IMG/VR virus record: IMGVR_UViG_2579778989_000004
Location: 1-15,041 of that record
From: a virus
Taxonomy: Duplodnaviria > Heunggongvirae > Uroviricota > Caudoviricetes
DNA length: 15,041 nt
Strand: one strand, 5' to 3'
In this document: piece after piece, positions 2,818 through 15,041 of the stretch
Layout of the letters: each line of letters starts with the position of its first letter
Numbering within the stretch: position 1 is the first letter of the stretch
Program-made: the position numbers and the translations under genes
Notes under the pieces: generated by a model
What the model was told of the DNA's origin: nothing
The model's input: only the letters and a program-made list of their open reading frames with translations
Databases searched by the model: none

Positions 2818-3438
2818 ATGAAAGATCAAGATGTTAGGTTCGCGGTGCATCATAAGCTTTTGAAAGAATCGCATTTAGATCCAGACTGCCTTGTGGTCGA
2901 TGAATTTTCCATATCCCTTGGCGCCAGTAGAGCAGACATTGCTGTAATAAATGGTGTTATACACGGGTACGAGCTCAAAAGTGAATATGACTCTTTGGAG
3001 CGTTTGCCTCTTCAAATCAAGCATTATTCTTCTGTAATGGACAAGGTTACTCTTGTCGTAGCTGAGAAACACCTTGAGGGAGCATTAAAGTTAATCCCAG
3101 GTTGGTGGGGCGTTAAAACGGTTTCTGTTGGGCCAAAAGGCGCCATTCTTATAAAGCACATGCGTGGAGAAAAGCTTAATCGAAACCATGACACATTGAT
3201 GCTCGCTCAATTGCTTTGGAAAGATGAATGTATCGACGTACTTGAACGATGGGGCTATTCCAAAGGAATCAAAAGCAAGCCCCGATTTGAGTTATGGAAT
3301 ATTATTGCGGAAAATATTCCAATAGCGAATCTCAGGCCTGAAGTCAGAACAGCCTTAAAGAAACGCGTAGGCTGGAAAGTTAAGGCTTGGCAGGCTGAGT
3401 CTGCGCCAACCAATAAAGCTGTCTCACGACTAACGTAA
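2818..3438 (+). CDS. Hypothetical protein (206 aa) with an N-terminal PD-(D/E)xK-like nuclease motif. AT-rich accessory gene.
   Basis: Complete ORF with SD AAGGAG at 5-nt spacing. Residues D28-E29, D40 (RADIAVING) and E52-L-K54 (HGYELKSE) fit the hhhD-x(n)-hhExK pattern on predicted beta strands. GC content is visibly lower than in the flanking phage genes. Confidence 0.7.
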   Translation: MKDQDVRFAVHHKLLKESHLDPDCLVVDEFSISLGASRADIAVINGVIHGYELKSEYDSLERLPLQIKHYSSVMDKVTLVVAEKHLEGALKLIPGWWGVKTVSVGPKGAILIKHMRGEKLNRNHDTLMLAQLLWKDECIDVLERWGYSKGIKSKPRFELWNIIAENIPIANLRPEVRTALKKRVGWKVKAWQAESAPTNKAVSRLT

Positions 3439-4447
3439 TATGGTGCGTATGTGCAACTTTACGCCATTCTTTAGAGCCGCCAGATTTGTTAGCGCCTAAT
3501 GATCTTTGGTAAATGTAATCATCCCCCCAACTAAATTTGGAGCCAAAGACTTGATACTCTGGCGAACTAACAAGGGTAGTACATAAGTTTTTAGTTTGGC
3601 CCCATCCATTTCCTTTAACTGCGGTACCTTTTACAAAGATCCATGAGGTATCGTTCGAATATCTCACTGAGACATACTGAGACATGAAGCGTGGGTCTAC
3701 GCTCGTAATGGTAGAGCTAGCGGTGGGATAATCACTAAAACTTGGCGTTCTTCCATTGCTAAAATTCTGTACTACGTACATCCAAAGATCGTATTCATGG
3801 CGCGGAATATGATGAACTTGATGTTGCGGTATCCCTGCCTGTGATGCCGGGTATGCGGTTGAAGATAAAATCAAGTTTCTCCACGGAGCTTGGCCTGATA
3901 ATGTGTTGACCATGCTTAATGCTTGTTGTTTTAAACTATCAGTTGCGTTTTGAATATCTCCAAAATCAATGATTACATCAATTAAACTAGGATGAATATT
4001 TAAGTGGTTAACCAGACTTGTGAATTGGTGCCATGTCTGGGGGGTGATAGACATAGCGAGCCCATTGATTAAGTTGCGTTGAACAGCATGTATATAGTTT
4101 GTTGAATATGCGGGAGAAACAACAGGGATAATTTCCTTACCATTTACTCTAGCATCTTGGATACACATATCTAGAGGATGATGGCGGCTCGAACCATGTT
4201 TATCTAAATATTTAACATCCAGCAAAACAGGACGATTGGCTTTCCAGGATGCCGCAAGGTTAATACCGAAGTCAGATAAGTAAGAACTCAAACTCTTCTT
4301 GTAGCATTCGTTTTCATAATCCCAGTCTATGTCTGGAATGGTAATGATCGGAGTAAAACCAGAGAGCGTAGTTTGATCTAAAAGCATCAGAGATTCATAT
4401 TCAGCAGGCTTCCATTTCAGCTGTGGATAATATTGATGTTGACTCAT
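3380..4447 (-). CDS. Hypothetical protein (355 aa), family not recognised. Convergent with the 206-aa gene and overlapping its 3' end by ~59 bp.
   Basis: Long minus-strand ORF in AT-rich DNA, where spurious long ORFs are unlikely. ATG at 4447-4445 with SD AAGGAG (complement of 4453-4458) at 5-nt spacing. No Walker A or other motif I can assign. Confidence 0.7.
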   Translation of the reverse strand: MSQHQYYPQLKWKPAEYESLMLLDQTTLSGFTPIITIPDIDWDYENECYKKSLSSYLSDFGINLAASWKANRPVLLDVKYLDKHGSSRHHPLDMCIQDARVNGKEIIPVVSPAYSTNYIHAVQRNLINGLAMSITPQTWHQFTSLVNHLNIHPSLIDVIIDFGDIQNATDSLKQQALSMVNTLSGQAPWRNLILSSTAYPASQAGIPQHQVHHIPRHEYDLWMYVVQNFSNGRTPSFSDYPTASSTITSVDPRFMSQYVSVRYSNDTSWIFVKGTAVKGNGWGQTKNLCTTLVSSPEYQVFGSKFSWGDDYIYQRSLGANKSGGSKEWRKVAHTHHITLVVRQLYWLAQTQPAKP

Positions 4448-4639: not shown

Positions 4640-4850
4640 CGGGTCCTTTCCGGTGATCCAGATCGTTACGGGGCGGCGACCTCGCGGGTTTTCGCTATTT
4701 ATGAAAATTTTTAGGGAAAAATCAGATCCGTTCTTCTTCTTTTTAACTGATTGATTATCAATAGAATTTTAAAAATATAAAAGGATCTGACAAAGGCTGT
4801 TTTTGTTAGAAAACGCCATTTTCAGATCCTTTCTGGTTCCCGGGGGAGTG
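4640..4850. other. cos: cos site (cosQ, cosN, cosB) of a lambda-type packaging system. The 12-nt cohesive-end sequence GGGCGGCGACCT is at 4671-4682.
   Basis: GTCGTTGGCGGGTCCTTTCCGGTGATCC...GTTACGGGGCGGCGACCTCGCGGGTTTTCGCTATTTATGAAAATTTT matches the lambda right-end/left-end junction as I recall it. It lies immediately upstream of a Nu1 homologue. Downstream cosB-like repeats are described in findings. Confidence 0.85.
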
Positions 4851-4851
4851 T

Positions 4852-5400
4852 ATGAACGTCAATAAGAAAAAACTGGCCGATATTTTTGGCGTTGATGTCA
4901 GGACCATCACCGCCTGGCAGAGTCAGGGGTTACCACTAGTTTCTGGTGGAGGGAAAGGGACTGAATCAGTTTTTGATACAACTGCTGCCATTCAGTGGTA
5001 TGCGCAGAGGGAAGCTGATATTGAAAACGAAAAACTCCGTAAAGAGATCGAGGATTTGAGGGCTGCCAGCGAATCAGACCTTCAGCCCGGCACCATTGAT
5101 TACGAACGTTACCGACTGACGAAGGCACAGGCCGATGCACAGGAGCTGAAAAATGCTCGTGAGGAAGGCCTTGTCCTCGAGACGGAGTTATTTACCTACA
5201 TCTTTCAGCGAGTGGCACAGAATATATCAGGGATCCTTGTCCGTGTCCCTCAGACACTGCAGCGTAAATACCCTGATATATCACCCGTACATCTTGATGC
5301 TGTGAAAACTGAAATCGCGAAAGCATCCGATGTGGCTTCTGAAGCCGGTGAGAATGTGCGCAGGTGGATTGATGATTTCAGACGAACTGAGGGCGGCTAA
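4852..5400 (+). CDS. nu1: Terminase small subunit (lambda gpNu1 homologue), 182 aa.
   Basis: [29 protein letters not shown]...[58 protein letters not shown] is closely similar to lambda Nu1 (N-terminal winged-HTH region) from memory. Confidence 0.95.
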
Positions 5401-7300
5401 TTCTGCAGGAGCGATAGCAACCGGCCTCCTTGCGCTAAAAATTCCTGTCCCTCTGACGACAGTTCAGTGGGCAGATCGACATTATTACCTTCCGAAAGAG
5501 TCATCTTACACCCCGGGGCGGTGGGAAACACTGCCGTTTCAGGTTGCCATCATGAACAGCATGGGGAATGACCGGATCCGCACTGTTAATCTGATTAAAT
5601 CTGCCCGTGTTGGTTATACAAAGATGTTGCTGGGAGTGGAGGCTTATTTTATTGAGCATAAATCACGCAACAGCCTTCTTTTCCAGCCCACGGATTCTGC
5701 TGCTGAAGATTTTATGAAATCTCATGTGGAACCCACGATCAGGGATGTGCCGGTTTTACTCGATCTTGCACCGTGGTTTGGGCGTAAACATCGTGATAAT
5801 ACCCTCACGCTGAAACGTTTTTCATCGGGCGTGGGCTTCTGGTGCCTGGGCGGGGCTGCCGCTAAAAACTACCGTGAAAAATCCGTGGACGTGGTCTGCT
5901 ATGACGAACTTTCCTCGTTCGAACCGGATGTCGAAAAAGAGGGTTCGCCAACCCTGCTTGGGGATAAACGTATTGAGGGCTCTGTATGGCCCAAATCCAT
6001 TCGCGGCTCGACGCCTAAAATCAAAGGCACCTGCCAGATCGAAAAAGCGGCCAACGAGTCGGCGCATTTCATGCGTTTTTATGTGCCCTGCCCACACTGT
6101 GGGGAGGAGCAGTATCTGAAATTTGGCGATGAATCCACGCCTTTTGGCCTTAAATGGGAGAAGGACAGCCCCGAAAGCGTTTTCTACCTCTGTGAACATC
6201 ATGGCTGCGTGATCCATCAGTCTGAGCTTGACCAGAGCAACGGGCGGTGGATCTGTGAAAACACGGGGATGTGGACCCGTGACGGTCTGACGTTTTTCAG
6301 CGCCGCGGATAATGAAATTCCGCCGCCGCGCTCCATCACGTTCCATATCTGGACGGCGTACAGTCCGTTCACCACCTGGGTACAGATAGTCTATGACTGG
6401 CTGGATGCACTGAAAGATCCCAACGGCCTGAAAACCTTTGTGAACACCACGCTGGGCGAGACCTGGGAAGAGGCCGTGGGCGAAAAACTCGATCACCAGG
6501 TACTGATGGATAAGGTTGTTCATTACACGGCGGCGGTGCCTGCCCGGGTGGTTTATCTGACGGCGGGCATTGACTCGCAGCGAAACCGTTTTGAGATGTA
6601 TGTCTGGGGATGGGCTCCGGGAGAGGAAGCCTTTCTGGTGGATAAAATCATCATTATGGGACGTCCCGATGAGGAAGAGACGCTGTTACGTGTGGATGCG
6701 GCGATCAACAAAAAATACCGCCATGCGGATGGCACCGAAATGACCATTTCCCGTGTCTGCTGGGACACCGGGGGGATCGATGGTGAAATCGTCTACCAGA
6801 GGTCAAAAAAACACGGTGTTTTCCGTGTGCTGCCGGTAAAAGGCGCATCTGTCTATGGCAAGCCGGTGATCACCATGCCGAAAACCCGCAATCAGCGGGG
6901 CGTGTATCTGTGTGAAGTGGGGACGGACACCGCAAAAGAAATTCTCTATGCCCGTATGAAAGCCGATCCCACGTCTGCGGATGAAGCCACGTCGTATGCC
7001 ATCCGTTTTCCTGATGATCCGGAGATTTTTTCGCAGACAGAGGCGCAGCAACTGGTCGCGGAAGAGCTTGTGGAGAAGTGGGAAAAAGGAAAGATGCGTC
7101 TGCTGTGGGATAACAAAAAGCGGCGTAACGAAGCGCTGGACTGCCTGGTGTATGCCTATGCGGCATTACGTGTGTCCGTGCAACGCTGGCAGCTTGATCT
7201 GGCTGTACTGGCAAAATCCCGGGAAGAAGAGACGACCCGGCCAACCCTTAAAGAACTGGCAGCGAAGCTGTCCGGAGGAGTGAATGGTTACAGTCGCTGA
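5372..7300 (+). CDS. A: Terminase large subunit (lambda gpA homologue), ~642 aa.
   Basis: Strong similarity to lambda gpA throughout (e.g. [60 protein letters not shown]). The ATG at 5372 is preceded by AGGTGGA and gives an N-terminal length matching lambda A. The track's longer start at 5330 lies inside Nu1. Confidence 0.95.
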
Positions 7301-13484: not shown

Positions 13485-13569
13485 ACGACAGCTGTTGTAG
13501 TTTCTGGTTTCTACTGAATTTAAATTGTGGGGTGACACTCACCCCACGCATTCAGAAGGGGGAGATGAG

Positions 13570-13893
13570 ATGGGGGTAACATCGGGATGGGTAGGCTCTT
13601 CGGCTAAGAGCGAAACAGGTGAGCAGTGGATGGGAGCCGCCGGAACCAAACTGGGACTGAGTAAACCTTTTATGATGAGCCAAATGGTTGGGCGAACTAT
13701 GGGCTGTAAAATTGCAACTGAGTACTATAAATGGAAATCCTCTGACAAGGTTGATAACTGGGGCGCAGTTGGCGCTGACTGGCCTTTAGAAGAAAAAAGT
13801 AAAGGTACAATTACAAACGCCGCAAGCTGCGGATCAGGGAGGCTGGTAGGGGCTGTCGTTACACTTTCTCACTTTTTGACGAACTCTACGTAA
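13570..13893 (+). CDS. Small Gly/Trp-rich hypothetical protein (~107 aa from ATG 13570). Its stop codon lies in the first bases of the IS66-family terminus, so the gene may be truncated.
   Basis: ORF with SD-like AAGGGGGAG upstream of ATG 13570 (the track's TTG start is at 13525). The TAA at 13891-13893 is part of the GTAAGCG at 13890-13896. No recognisable family. Confidence 0.4.
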   Translation: MGVTSGWVGSSAKSETGEQWMGAAGTKLGLSKPFMMSQMVGRTMGCKIATEYYKWKSSDKVDNWGAVGADWPLEEKSKGTITNAASCGSGRLVGAVVTLSHFLTNST

Positions 13894-15041
13894 GCGACTC
13901 GTCAGAACCGTATTGATATTTACTGAGAGCTCAGATCAACTTTCCAGGGCAACAGATCGCGTACCCGGTTTGCCGGCCAGTCCTGGATATGTTCAATGAC
14001 GTAACGCAGCCACTTTTCTGGCTCCACATTGTTCAGACGGCATGTGCCGATCAGCGAGTACAACACCGCCGCATGTTCACCACCGCTGTCGGAACCCGCG
14101 AACATCCAGTTTTTCCGGCCTACGGCCACTCCCCGTAAGGCGTTCTCTGCGATGTTGTTGTCGATTTCCACCCAGCCATTACTGCAGTACACGTTCAGTG
14201 CATCCCACTGTTTCAGCAGGTATGCGAACGCTTTTGCCGTATCTGAGTGACGCGACAGTGTTTTCATCTGTTGCTGTATCCAGTCATACAGTGACTGCAT
14301 CAGTGGCGCGGCTCTGGCTTTTCTTGCCGCCAGACGCTGTTCTGCTGAACAGCCCCGGACCTCTGCCTCGATGGCATACAGTTCACCGATACGCTGCAGG
14401 GCTTCCGTGGTGATGTAGGTGGGCGCTCTTGCATGCACATCGTGGATTTTTCTCCGGGCATGAGCCATACACGCGGCTTCCGTTATTCTGCCGGATTCGT
14501 ATAACGCCCGGTAACCACCGTAAGCATCGGCCTGAAGCACACCGCTGTAACCGGCCAGGTGATTTTGTGGATGGATACCTTTCCGGTCCGGACTGTACGC
14601 GAACCAGACCGCCGGGGGCATCTGTGAACCGGCGTTACGGTCATCACGGACGTAGACCCACAGCCGGGCTGTCCGGGTTTTACCGCTGCCCGGCTCCTGG
14701 ACCGGGACGGGGATATCATCAGCATGGACTTTACCGGGCATCAGCACATACTGGCGCAGGACGTCATACAGCGGCTCCAGCAGTTCAGCAACAGCACCTG
14801 TCCAGCGCCCCAGTGTGGCACGGCTCAGCTCCACTCCCTGACGACGGTATATTTCTGACTGGCGGTATAACGGCAGATGGTCTGCATATTTCCCGGTGAC
14901 AACATGGGCCAGAAGCCCCGCTCCGGCATAACTGCGTGCAATGGGTTTTGAAGGTACTGGTGCCTGCACGATATGGTCGCACCGGCAACAGGCCTGTTTC
15001 GGACGTTGTGTTTCGATAACCTTAAAGGCGCTGCTGATAAG
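13890..15041 (-). mobile_element. IS66-family insertion sequence, partial (extends beyond the window end), inverted relative to the phage genes.
   Basis: GTAAGCG at 13890-13896 is typical of IS66-family terminal inverted repeats. It lies 30 bp outside the stop of a minus-strand IS66-type transposase gene. Confidence 0.7.
13920..15041 (-). CDS. tnpC: IS66-family transposase (TnpC-type), C-terminal ~374 codons; the N-terminus is outside the window.
   Basis: The minus-strand frame stays open past the track's GTG start at 14969 through to base 15041. The translation (…[28 protein letters not shown]…, …[36 protein letters not shown]…) is characteristic of IS66 TnpC. Cys-rich CCRC segment upstream. 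Confidence 0.85.

What the first reader, a model, noticed from the sequence alone, without database searches (positions are those of the whole stretch)
4640..4850. cos site with lambda-identical cosQ/cosN but a distinct cosB carrying three TCAGATCC repeats and an IHF-like site
The cohesive-end core and cosQ match lambda as I recall it, but downstream the sequence diverges. In cosB, TCAGATCC occurs at 4722-4729 and 4822-4829 in direct orientation, with the inverse copy GGATCTGA at 4783-4790. The outer arms (4780-4790 and 4822-4832) form an 11-bp perfect inverted repeat, AAAGGATCTGA and TCAGATCCTTT. On the minus strand at 4744-4756 there is a match to the IHF consensus WATCAANNNNTTR (AATCAATCAGTTA), between the first and second repeats. 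This resembles the lambda R3-I1-R2-R1 layout and suggests these repeats are the recognition elements for this phage's Nu1.
Basis: partly seen in the sequence, partly recalled or inferred. Interest (0 to 1): 0.4.

Follow-up and report, generated by a model that had tools for sequence, protein, structure and literature searches.

The report
Prophage cos site, Gifsy-1-type cosB
This is the DNA-packaging start site (cos) of a lambda-like E. coli prophage: the cutting site matches phage lambda, but the three terminase-docking repeats are the type already noted in Salmonella phage Gifsy-1, so it is an ordinary new member of a known kind.

Summary
TCAGATCC occurs only three times in 15 kb, all inside 111 bp. 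They lie in +, -, + orientation at 4722, 4783 and 4822. A perfect IHF consensus sits at 4744-4756(-).

The repeats are the left halves of longer R elements, (T)CAGATCC[G/T]TT[C/T]T. These lie at the same positions as lambda R3, R2 and R1, within 1 bp. The IHF match occupies bp 74-86, the same coordinates as the annotated I1 of phage 21. cosQ, the 12-nt cohesive end and I2 up to bp 41 equal lambda.

The cosB plus the Nu1 DNA-binding domain form a Gifsy-1-type module: recognition helix RTITAWQS here, RTVTAWQS in Gifsy-1, whose domain is solved as PDB 7LXS. Across about 200 loci the helix type and the R core co-vary without exception among lambda, 21 and Gifsy-1 types. Feiss and colleagues already state that Gifsy-1 has an R3-I1-R2-R1 cosB, but in the papers I could read, packaging tests exist only for lambda, 21 and N15.

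Verdict: new member of a known kind, low-to-moderate interest. Side observations: each R core contains a Dam GATC site; one relative has a natural R3-to-R1 100-bp deletion; PICI-like satellites carry this cosB type as a second, inverted cos.

The parts
4641..4647 (+). cosQ heptamer GGGTCCT. It starts 30 bp before the left cohesive end, as in lambda.
   Evidence: Sequence; alignment to lambda. cosQ is described as a conserved 7-bp site in PMC4669245.
4671..4682 (+). 12-nt cohesive-end sequence GGGCGGCGACCT, the core of cosN. Window 4671 is bp 1. The flanks from 4665 to 4711 are identical to lambda.
4688..4719 (+). I2 spacer, about bp 18-49. It is A/T-rich and equals lambda up to bp 41.
   Evidence: I2 is defined as about bp 18-50 in PMC4856287.
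4720..4738 (+). R3, ATCAGATCCGTTCTTCTTC. CAGATCCGTTCTTCTT is invariant in six diverged members of the class. The AGATCC core is at bp 54-59.
   Evidence: The phage 21 record annotates R3 at bp 50-65.
4744..4756 (-). I1, an IHF consensus match AATCAATCAGTTA at bp 74-86, followed by an A/T-rich tract up to R2.
   Evidence: Phage 21 I1 is annotated at bp 74-86. The homologous TAACTnnTTG core is present in every specificity class.
4777..4792 (-). R2, the inverted copy. The plus strand reads ATAAAAGGATCTGACA, and AAAGGATCTG is invariant in the class.
   Evidence: Phage 21 R2 is annotated at bp 107-122.
4820..4836 (+). R1, TTTCAGATCCTTTCTGG. AGATCCTTTC is invariant in the class.
   Evidence: Phage 21 R1 is annotated at bp 150-166.
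4852..5400 (+). Nu1 (small terminase subunit, TerS), 182 aa. The winged-helix DNA-binding domain is aa 1-55 (4852-5016). The recognition helix, aa 17-24, is RTITAWQS (4900-4923).
   Evidence: Pfam Phage_Nu1, E 1.6e-86. PDB 7LXS (Gifsy-1 domain), 1J9I and 7LW0 (lambda), and 7LWR (phage 21) all match.
5372..7300 (+). gpA (large terminase subunit), the enzyme that nicks cosN. The start is as annotated in the E. coli 55989 copy; the longest ORF starts at 5330.
   Evidence: Pfam GpA_ATPase and GpA_nuclease; RefSeq annotation.

Best explanation
Window 4641-4836 is the cos site of a lambda-like E. coli prophage.

Proposed mechanism, by analogy with lambda:

1. Nu1 dimers place their winged-helix recognition helices (RTITAWQS) in the major groove of R3 and of the inverted R2.
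2. IHF bound at I1 folds the DNA by about 180 degrees, so that R3 and R2 face each other. R1 plays an accessory role.
3. This complex anchors gpA at a fixed distance, so that it makes staggered nicks at 4670/4671 on the top strand and 12 nt further on the bottom strand. The result is lambda-type cohesive ends.
4. cosQ at 4641-4647 serves packaging termination.

The site is a mosaic. cosQ, cosN and I2 are lambda-type. cosB plus the Nu1 DNA-binding domain are a Gifsy-1-type specificity module. The R core is AGATCC where lambda has GTTTCC and phage 21 has TGTCGG.

Shown here: the sequence anatomy, the geometry, the homology, and the helix/R-core co-variation. Inferred: protein binding, the IHF bend, the nicking positions, and a packaging specificity distinct from lambda and 21.
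For: - Exact coordinates and clustering of the repeats.
- Geometry equal to lambda, 21 and Gifsy-1 within 1 bp. The R3, I1, R2 and R1 coordinates coincide with those annotated in the phage 21 record.
- Nu1 and gpA follow immediately downstream. The Nu1 DNA-binding domain is 84% identical to the Gifsy-1 domain, against 60% to lambda and 73% to 21. It matches PDB 7LXS at E 5e-28.
- Co-variation in 77 distinct upstream regions from about 100 loci: RTIQNWQ[ED] goes with CGTTTCC, RTIERWQS with [AG]TGTCGG, and RT[IV]T[AGS]WQS or RTISTWQN with AGATCC.
- Reverse search by cosB pattern alone found 119 loci. Every copy with a Nu1-type gene downstream (89 intact reading frames plus 5 with a disrupted start) has the RT[IV][TS][AGT]WQ[SN] helix, and none has the lambda or 21 helix.
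- In six members whose cosB is about 71% identical overall, the only long invariant runs are the three R elements.
- Recombination joints flank the cosB + DNA-binding-domain module. The window is 88-98% lambda/PhiR5_1-like up to about 4715 and Gifsy-1-like over 4716-4975. It is then 95-100% PhiR5_1-like at 5016-5155 and closest to the IMG/VR relative L051 at the C-terminus, with phage 21 next.
- The E. coli 55989 copy sits in a prophage with complete head and tail genes.
- The literature states that Gifsy-1 has R3-I1-R2-R1 (PMC9026076, PMC4669245).
Against: - No binding, cleavage or packaging data exist for this cos. I also found none for Gifsy-1 in the held literature; PMC4669245 lists only lambda, 21 and N15 as documented specificities.
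- The IHF consensus match alone is not statistically significant. Close relatives of the class (Gifsy-1, SerU-LTIIb) have weaker matches at that position.
- The window's R2 departs from the class consensus at one position (AAAAGG versus GAAAGG).
- In this particular genome the prophage is truncated after gpZ by an IS66 element, so this copy may no longer be used by its own phage.
Confidence: 0.85

Rival explanations
1. The cos is a vestigial remnant. The repeats are inherited R sites that no longer function, because the prophage in this genome is defective.
For: After gpZ the window holds only a Gp38_N fragment (13525-13893) and an IS66 transposase (13920-14969, minus strand) in place of tail genes.
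Against: The cos region is 99.7-100% identical in 11 complete E. coli genomes, including 55989, where the prophage has a full head and tail module. All subsites and the Nu1 and gpA reading frames are intact. A cos in a defective prophage can still be packaged by a helper of matching specificity.
Confidence: 0.1
2. The GATC-containing repeats mainly serve a host GATC-reading system such as Dam or SeqA, or another regulator, rather than Nu1.
For: Each R core contains GATC, and five GATC sites lie in 4655-4828 against a window average of about one per 221 bp. Lambda and 21 R cores have no GATC.
Against: Conservation extends well beyond GATC (CAGATCCGTTCTTCTT). The elements are position-for-position homologues of lambda R sites. 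They switch in step with the Nu1 recognition helix. GATC is not over-represented in the window as a whole: 68 found against 59.7 expected.
Confidence: 0.03
3. The R2/R1 inverted repeat acts as an RNA or DNA hairpin, for example a terminator or a translational control element for Nu1, and the third copy is incidental.
For: Window 4774-4860 folds as RNA at -27.4 kcal/mol, z-score -3.4.
Against: No terminator-like site is found in cosB, and no T-run follows the stem. There is no Rfam match above threshold. Any inverted pair of 16-bp protein sites would fold this way, and lambda's proven R2/R1 pair does too. The hairpin does not explain R3 or its fixed distance from cosN.
Confidence: 0.02

Closest known systems
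Gifsy-1 (Salmonella) cos and TerS
   Same: The R core is the same (AGATCC[G/T]TTC) in R3, R2 and R1, at the same positions: bp 54, 114 and 155 in Gifsy-1 against 54, 113 and 154 here. The recognition helix is RTVTAWQS against RTITAWQS, and the DNA-binding domains are 84% identical. The Gifsy-1 domain is solved as PDB 7LXS.
   Different: Gifsy-1's cohesive end differs from lambda at positions 8, 9 and 11 (PMC4669245), whereas the window has lambda's cosN and I2. The I1 sequence differs: Gifsy-1 has TTATTTCCTGTTT, a poorer IHF match. The Nu1 C-terminal third is only 67% identical, and the Gifsy-1 protein as annotated is 164 aa.
Phage lambda cos
   Same: The cosQ heptamer, the 12-nt end and bp 13-41 are identical. 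The R3-I1-R2-R1 architecture and spacing are identical. R positions 57-68 are shared (TCCGTTCTTCTT).
   Different: R core bp 54-56 read AGA instead of GTT in all three R elements. The recognition helix is RTITAWQS instead of RTIQNWQE. Bp 56 is a known critical specificity contact, paired with residue 24 (PMC9026076, citing Sippy et al. 2015).
Phage 21 cos and gp1
   Same: The architecture is the same, and the annotated coordinates of R3, I1, R2 and R1 coincide with the window's elements. Overall Nu1 identity is 82%, mostly in the C-terminal two thirds. Residue 24 is Ser in both.
   Different: The phage 21 R core is [AG]TGTCGGTAC and its helix is RTIERWQS.
Phage N15 simple cosB
   Same: It belongs to the lambda-like cos family and has an R3 at about bp 48-60 (PMC4669245).
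   Different: N15 has a single R and no I1, R2 or R1. The window has the full complex cosB. One relative, L047, does have an R3-to-R1 100-bp deletion that mimics the proposed origin of N15's cosB.
P1 pac site (my own knowledge: Sternberg and Coulby 1990)
   Same: The packaging recognition elements contain Dam GATC sites.
   Different: P1 pac cleavage is experimentally Dam-dependent and P1 packages by the headful mechanism. Nothing is known about methylation sensitivity here. This is a lead only.

Membership tests
Lambda-type complex cos (cosQ-cosN-I2-cosB) | 12-nt 5' cohesive-end sequence related to lambda's GGGCGGCGACCT | tested here: met
   Identical 12-mer at 4671-4682.
Lambda-type complex cos (cosQ-cosN-I2-cosB) | Conserved 7-bp cosQ about 30 bp upstream of the nick | tested here: met
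   GGGTCCT at 4641-4647, with the same spacing as lambda.
Lambda-type complex cos (cosQ-cosN-I2-cosB) | Three R sequences, with R2 inverted relative to R3 and R1, and R3 at a fixed distance from cosN | tested here: met
   Cores at bp 54(+), 113(-) and 154(+), against lambda's 54, 114 and 155.
Lambda-type complex cos (cosQ-cosN-I2-cosB) | IHF site I1 between R3 and R2 | tested here: met
   Perfect WATCAANNNNTTR match at bp 74-86, the coordinates of phage 21's annotated I1. This is sequence evidence only.
Lambda-type complex cos (cosQ-cosN-I2-cosB) | Nu1-family TerS with an N-terminal winged helix-turn-helix, followed by gpA-family TerL, immediately downstream | tested here: met
   Pfam Phage_Nu1 at 1.6e-86, plus GpA_ATPase and GpA_nuclease. 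PDB 1J9I and 7LXS match.
Lambda-type complex cos (cosQ-cosN-I2-cosB) | TerS binding to the R sites, IHF binding, and staggered nicking by terminase | not testable with these tools
   Needs EMSA or footprinting and cos-cleavage or packaging assays.
Gifsy-1-type cosB/TerS specificity module | R core AGATCC[G/T]TTC in all three R elements | tested here: met
Gifsy-1-type cosB/TerS specificity module | Recognition helix RT[IV]T[AGS]WQS (aa 17-24) | tested here: met
   RTITAWQS. Every cosB of this type that has a Nu1-type gene downstream carries this helix family.
Gifsy-1-type cosB/TerS specificity module | Gifsy-1 cohesive-end variant (differs from lambda at positions 8, 9 and 11) | tested here: not met
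   The window has lambda's cosN. cosN and cosB assort independently among relatives, so this feature describes Gifsy-1 itself rather than the cosB class.
Lambda packaging specificity | R core CGTTTCC with helix RTIQNWQ[ED] | tested here: not met
Phage 21 packaging specificity | R core [AG]TGTCGG with helix RTIERWQS | tested here: not met
N15-type simple cosB | A single R3, with no I1, R2 or R1 | tested here: not met
   All four subsites are present.

The most novel reading that the evidence does not exclude
The Gifsy-1-type cosB would be a fourth, experimentally uncharacterised packaging specificity of the lambda family, with three notable properties.

1. Its recognition core is itself a Dam site. 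GATC occupies bp 55-58, which includes bp 56, the critical specificity contact in lambda and 21. TerS docking, and hence packaging initiation, would then be sensitive to the methylation state of replicating DNA, as at P1 pac.
2. The same module is exploited by PICI-like satellites. These carry it as a second, inverted cos next to a 21-type cos, which would give them two helper specificities.
3. Natural R3-to-R1 deletions such as L047 would show how a simple N15-like cosB arises.
Probability: 0.15. Interest if true: 0.6.

Novelty: new member of a known kind. Interest (0 to 1): 0.28.

Why it matters
cosB and TerS specificity decide which DNA a lambdoid phage packages. They therefore decide which co-resident prophages and satellites interfere with or hijack one another.

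This locus shows cleanly that the cosB + TerS DNA-binding-domain unit moves as a module, independently of cosN and of the TerL-binding end of TerS. It also gives a precise definition of the Gifsy-1-type R element: (T)CAGATCC[G/T]TT[C/T]T. That definition can be used to annotate cos sites and to predict helper-satellite compatibility in E. coli and Salmonella.

For specialists the architecture itself is expected. The testable extras are the Dam site inside every R core and the satellites with two cos sites.

Tried and rejected
- Chance: rejected, because the three 8-mers are the only copies in 15 kb and are clustered.
- Terminator or promoter: there is no terminator-like site in cosB. The promoter-like hits on the minus strand lie in the A/T-rich I1 tract and have no gene to serve.
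- Known RNA family: only a sub-threshold STnc540 hit, 17.5 bits against a gathering score of 38.
- R2/R1 hairpin as an RNA element: it folds well, but this is expected of any inverted pair of protein sites, and I did not pursue it. The spacers between R2 and R1 in other classes show no consistent extra palindrome.
- New cosB type: rejected. Gifsy-1 and SerU-LTIIb share it, and the literature already describes the Gifsy-1 layout.
- Two Feiss-lab papers that might list the Gifsy-1 R sequences (PMC4461450, PMC5006951) are not held. I therefore cannot say whether the exact R consensus has been printed.
- Searches for the PDB codes 7LXS, 7LWR and 7LW0 found no paper describing those structures.
- A search for Dam methylation together with cos or terminase found nothing relevant.
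- The genome-contig scan gave few class members: one Providencia contig, truncated within cosB, with R1 intact and R2 variant.

Full report
**Observation**

I read the region. TCAGATCC occurs at 4722-4729(+), 4783-4790(-) and 4822-4829(+), and nowhere else in the 15,041-bp window. Shuffles give a mean of 0.55 matches, and 2 of 200 shuffles reach 3. All three copies lie within 111 bp.

The repeat finder confirms two further relationships. R3 and R1 are direct repeats: 18 nt, 83% identical, 100 bp apart.

The IHF consensus WATCAANNNNTTR matches at 4744-4756(-). There are two matches in the window against 0.49 expected, and 17 of 200 shuffles do as well, so this match is not significant on its own.

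The lambda comparison shows three things:
- The stretch CGGGTCCTTTCCGGTGATCC, which contains the cosQ heptamer GGGTCCT at 4641-4647, is identical to lambda.
- GTTACG, the 12-nt end GGGCGGCGACCT (4671-4682) and the following 29 nt are also identical.
- Only the five bases at 4660-4664 differ.

From bp 42 onward the sequence departs from lambda.

**Context**

The window is a lambdoid prophage of E. coli. The 341-bp cos region is 99.7-100% identical in 11 complete genomes, including 55989.

Upstream lie holin, DUF1327, lysozyme and Rz genes, followed by a two-gene cargo insertion (a 'moron'). Downstream lie Nu1 (4852-5400), gpA, W, portal, the S49 protease, D, E, FI, FII and Z. This is the lambda gene order, with cos in the expected place between the lysis genes and Nu1.

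**What the repeats are**

The closest cosB in cultured phages is Salmonella phage Gifsy-1, at 73% identity over cosB and the start of Nu1. Next is the partial E. coli phage SerU-LTIIb.

Reading these two sequences shows the same three elements at the same places: CAGATCCGTTCTTCTT, GAAAGGATCTG and AGATCCTTTC. Counting from bp 1 of the cohesive end gives these positions:

| Phage | R3 core | R2 core (inverted) | R1 core |
|---|---|---|---|
| Window | AGATCC, bp 54 | GGATCT, bp 113 | AGATCC, bp 154 |
| Lambda | GTTTCC, bp 54 | GGAAAC, bp 114 | GTTTCC, bp 155 |
| Phage 21 | TGTCGG, bp 55 | CCGACA, bp 112 | TGTCGG, bp 155 |
| Gifsy-1 | AGATCC, bp 54 | GGATCT, bp 114 | AGATCC, bp 155 |

The annotated phage 21 record places R3 at bp 50-65, I1 at 74-86, R2 at 107-122 and R1 at 150-166. 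The window's repeats fall inside each R interval. Its IHF match is at exactly bp 74-86.

The I1 core TAACTnnTTG is present at this position in every class. The window's version happens to be a perfect consensus match.

The repeats are therefore the R3, R2 and R1 homologues, and the 8-mer is only their left half. In the window the three copies align as (T)CAGATCC[G/T]TT[C/T]T. This differs from lambda's CGTTTCC[G/T]TTCT only at bp 54-56 (AGA for GTT).

I collected about 100 loci encoding Nu1 relatives: from the phage collection, from one genome per species, and from IMG/VR. For each I tabulated the recognition helix (aa 17-24, as defined for lambda in PMC9026076) against the three R segments. 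The association had no exception:

| Recognition helix | R core |
|---|---|
| RTIQNWQ[ED] (lambda, phi80 and relatives in Citrobacter, Kluyvera and Klebsiella) | CGTTTCC |
| RTIERWQS (phage 21 type) | [AG]TGTCGG |
| RTIDRWQT (PhiR5_1) | ATGTC[AG] |
| RT[IV]T[AGS]WQS and RTISTWQN | AGATCC |

I then searched in the reverse direction. A scan of IMG/VR for the cosB architecture alone (AGATCCGTTCTT...AAGGATCT...AGATCCTTT) returned 119 loci:
- 89 have an intact Nu1 reading frame downstream. All carry RT[IV][TS][AGT]WQ[SN], and none carries the lambda or 21 helix.
- 5 have a Nu1 with a disrupted start but the same helix type.
- 3 end too soon after cosB to tell.
- 22 have no Nu1 downstream; most of those examined are satellites (see 'Noticed in passing').

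In an alignment of six diverged members (mean column identity 71%), the only long invariant runs are CAGATCCGTTCTTCTT, AAAGGATCTG and AGATCCTTTC. The trailing TTC is conserved.

**Mosaic structure**

A sliding-window comparison shows four segments:

| Window segment | Closest relative |
|---|---|
| Up to about 4715 (cosQ, cosN, I2) | lambda and PhiR5_1, 88-98% |
| 4716-4975 (cosB and the Nu1 DNA-binding domain) | Gifsy-1 and the IMG/VR relative L051, 60-82% |
| 5016-5155 (Nu1 middle) | PhiR5_1, 95-100% |
| Nu1 C-terminus | L051, 85-100%; phage 21 next, 68-88% |

At the protein level, the DNA-binding domain (aa 1-55) is 84% identical to Gifsy-1, 73% to phage 21 and 60% to lambda. The C-terminal third is 82% identical to 21 and 28% to lambda.

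Relatives combine this cosB with at least three different cosN types. cosB and the DNA-binding domain thus travel together while both flanks recombine. This is what a functionally coupled recognition pair predicts, and it weakens the objection that the co-variation reflects linkage only.

**Mechanism (inferred by homology)**

The Nu1 N-terminus matches the solved winged-helix domains of lambda (1J9I, 7LW0), phage 21 (7LWR) and Gifsy-1 (7LXS).

In the lambda model summarised in PMC9026076, the alpha-2 helices of a TerS dimer contact bp 55-63 of R3 and of R2 across an IHF-induced 180-degree bend at I1. Residue 24 contacts bp 56, and bp 56, 58 and 59 are critical. R3's distance from cosN fixes where TerL nicks.

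Here bp 57-64 equal lambda, including C58 and C59, while bp 54-56 differ. Helix positions 20, 21 and 24 are T, A and S. Lambda has Q, N and E there, and phage 21 has E, R and S.

I therefore expect a specificity distinct from both lambda and 21. Partial cross-recognition cannot be excluded, because N15 terminase packages lambda DNA (PMC4669245).

Binding, bending, nicking and specificity are all inferred. None of them is shown here.

**Comparison with what is known**

[quoted passage not shown] PMC4669245 lists Gifsy-1 among the lambda-like cos phages. The same paper says that only the lambda, 21 and N15 specificities have been documented. PMC4856287 aligns the Gifsy-1 left end and underlines its R3.

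The kind is therefore known. What the window adds is an E. coli member that joins lambda's cosQ, cosN and I2 to a Gifsy-1-type cosB and domain. No cultured phage in the collection covers 80% or more of the 341-bp query. The analysis also yields a sharper definition of the R element.

I rate it a new member of a known kind.

**Rivals**

- A vestigial site is possible for this genome copy, because an IS66 element replaces the tail genes after Z. The 55989 copy, however, lies in a complete prophage.
- A role centred on GATC, or a hairpin role, does not explain the homology, the geometry or the co-variation.

**Noticed in passing**

1. Each R core contains a Dam site, GATC at 4725, 4784 and 4825. 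Lambda and 21 cores contain none. The GATC overlaps bp 56, the specificity contact.
2. L047, an IMG/VR prophage with the same Nu1, has an exact 100-bp deletion from the R3 copy of TCAGATCC to the R1 copy. This leaves a single hybrid R at the R3 position. It is the event proposed in PMC4669245 for the origin of N15's simple cosB.
3. Twenty-two pattern hits have no Nu1 after R1. In 21 of them a complete cos (cosQ, cosN, I2, R3-I1-R2-R1) is recognisable. The annotated example is a roughly 10-kb island at tRNA-Pro in E. coli cq9. It encodes an integrase, a small HTH regulator, a RepA-family helicase, SSB, E-like and D-like capsid genes, and a TerS, but no TerL. L124 has the same core genes with a different replication module. 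In at least eight of these loci the island's TerS-like gene is preceded by its own 21-type cos; in L115, the one read in full, that TerS has a 21-type helix, RTIERWQT. The gene is followed, in inverted orientation, by the Gifsy-1-type cos. The full dual-cos segment is present in 24 of 5,426 complete E. coli genomes. This differs from the published Rpp-type PICIs, whose cosB is described as lacking I1, R2 and R1 (PMC9026076, PMC6739421).
4. The moron between Rz and cos encodes a 'beta family' protein (PF14350; PADLOC PD-Lambda-2_C and 'beta') convergent with a 'cll / sce7726' protein.

Noticed in passing
window 4725-4728, 4784-4787, 4825-4828 (also 4655-4658 and 4661-4664): [quoted passage not shown] Five GATC sites lie within 174 bp of cos. 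Methylation sensitivity of TerS docking, as at P1 pac, is untested.
   Followed up: partly
L047 (IMGVR_UViG_2529293040_000025), about 960-1000, aligned to window 4722-4822: An exact 100-bp deletion runs from the R3 copy of TCAGATCC to the R1 copy. It leaves one hybrid R at the R3 position and removes I1 and R2. This is a natural 'simple cosB' of the kind proposed for the origin of N15's cosB. It could also be a defective prophage or an assembly artefact.
   Followed up: partly
L115 9270-10340; L221 (E. coli cq9, NZ_CP031546.1) about 11700-21800; also L106, L118, L119, L131, L138, L177, L208: PICI-like islands of about 10 kb at tRNA-Pro encode int, HTH, RepA helicase, SSB, E-like and D-like capsid proteins and a TerS, but no TerL. 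The TerS-like gene is flanked by two convergent cos sites: a 21-type cos upstream (R core CATGTCGG; the L115 TerS has a 21-type helix, RTIERWQT) and an inverted Gifsy-1-type complex cos downstream. The full segment is in 24 of 5,426 complete E. coli genomes. This suggests satellites able to use helpers of two packaging specificities. It differs from the published Rpp-type PICIs, which have a simple cosB.
   Followed up: partly
window 13525-14969: In this genome the prophage is truncated after gpZ. A Gp38_N tail-fibre-adhesin fragment (13525-13893) and an IS66-family transposase (13920-14969, minus strand) replace the tail genes. In E. coli 55989 the tail genes follow Z normally.
   Followed up: partly
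window 2818-3438(+) and 3380-4447(-): A moron between Rz and cos holds two convergent, overlapping genes. One is an 'sce7726 / cll' protein (PADLOC cll, E 4e-31). The other is a 'beta family' protein (Pfam PF14350; PADLOC PD-Lambda-2_C at E 4e-32 and 'beta'). They resemble parts of candidate anti-phage systems, but no complete system was identified.
   Followed up: no
L002, L071-L086 and L055 upstream regions; L106 and L115: cosN types assort independently of cosB types. Some Gifsy-1-type and 21-type cosB sites sit next to a quite different cohesive-end region (...ACCGGGGGTCTGGGGACGCGCAAAAACGC... or ...GGGGGTACGGGTACGCGC...) instead of GGGCGGCGACCT.
   Followed up: no
L003 (Providencia alcalifaciens) 1-92: A Nu1 with the RTITAWQS helix has an intact R1 (GAGATCCTTTCT) but a variant R2 (GGAAGTGA instead of GGATCTGA). 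The contig ends before R3.
   Followed up: no
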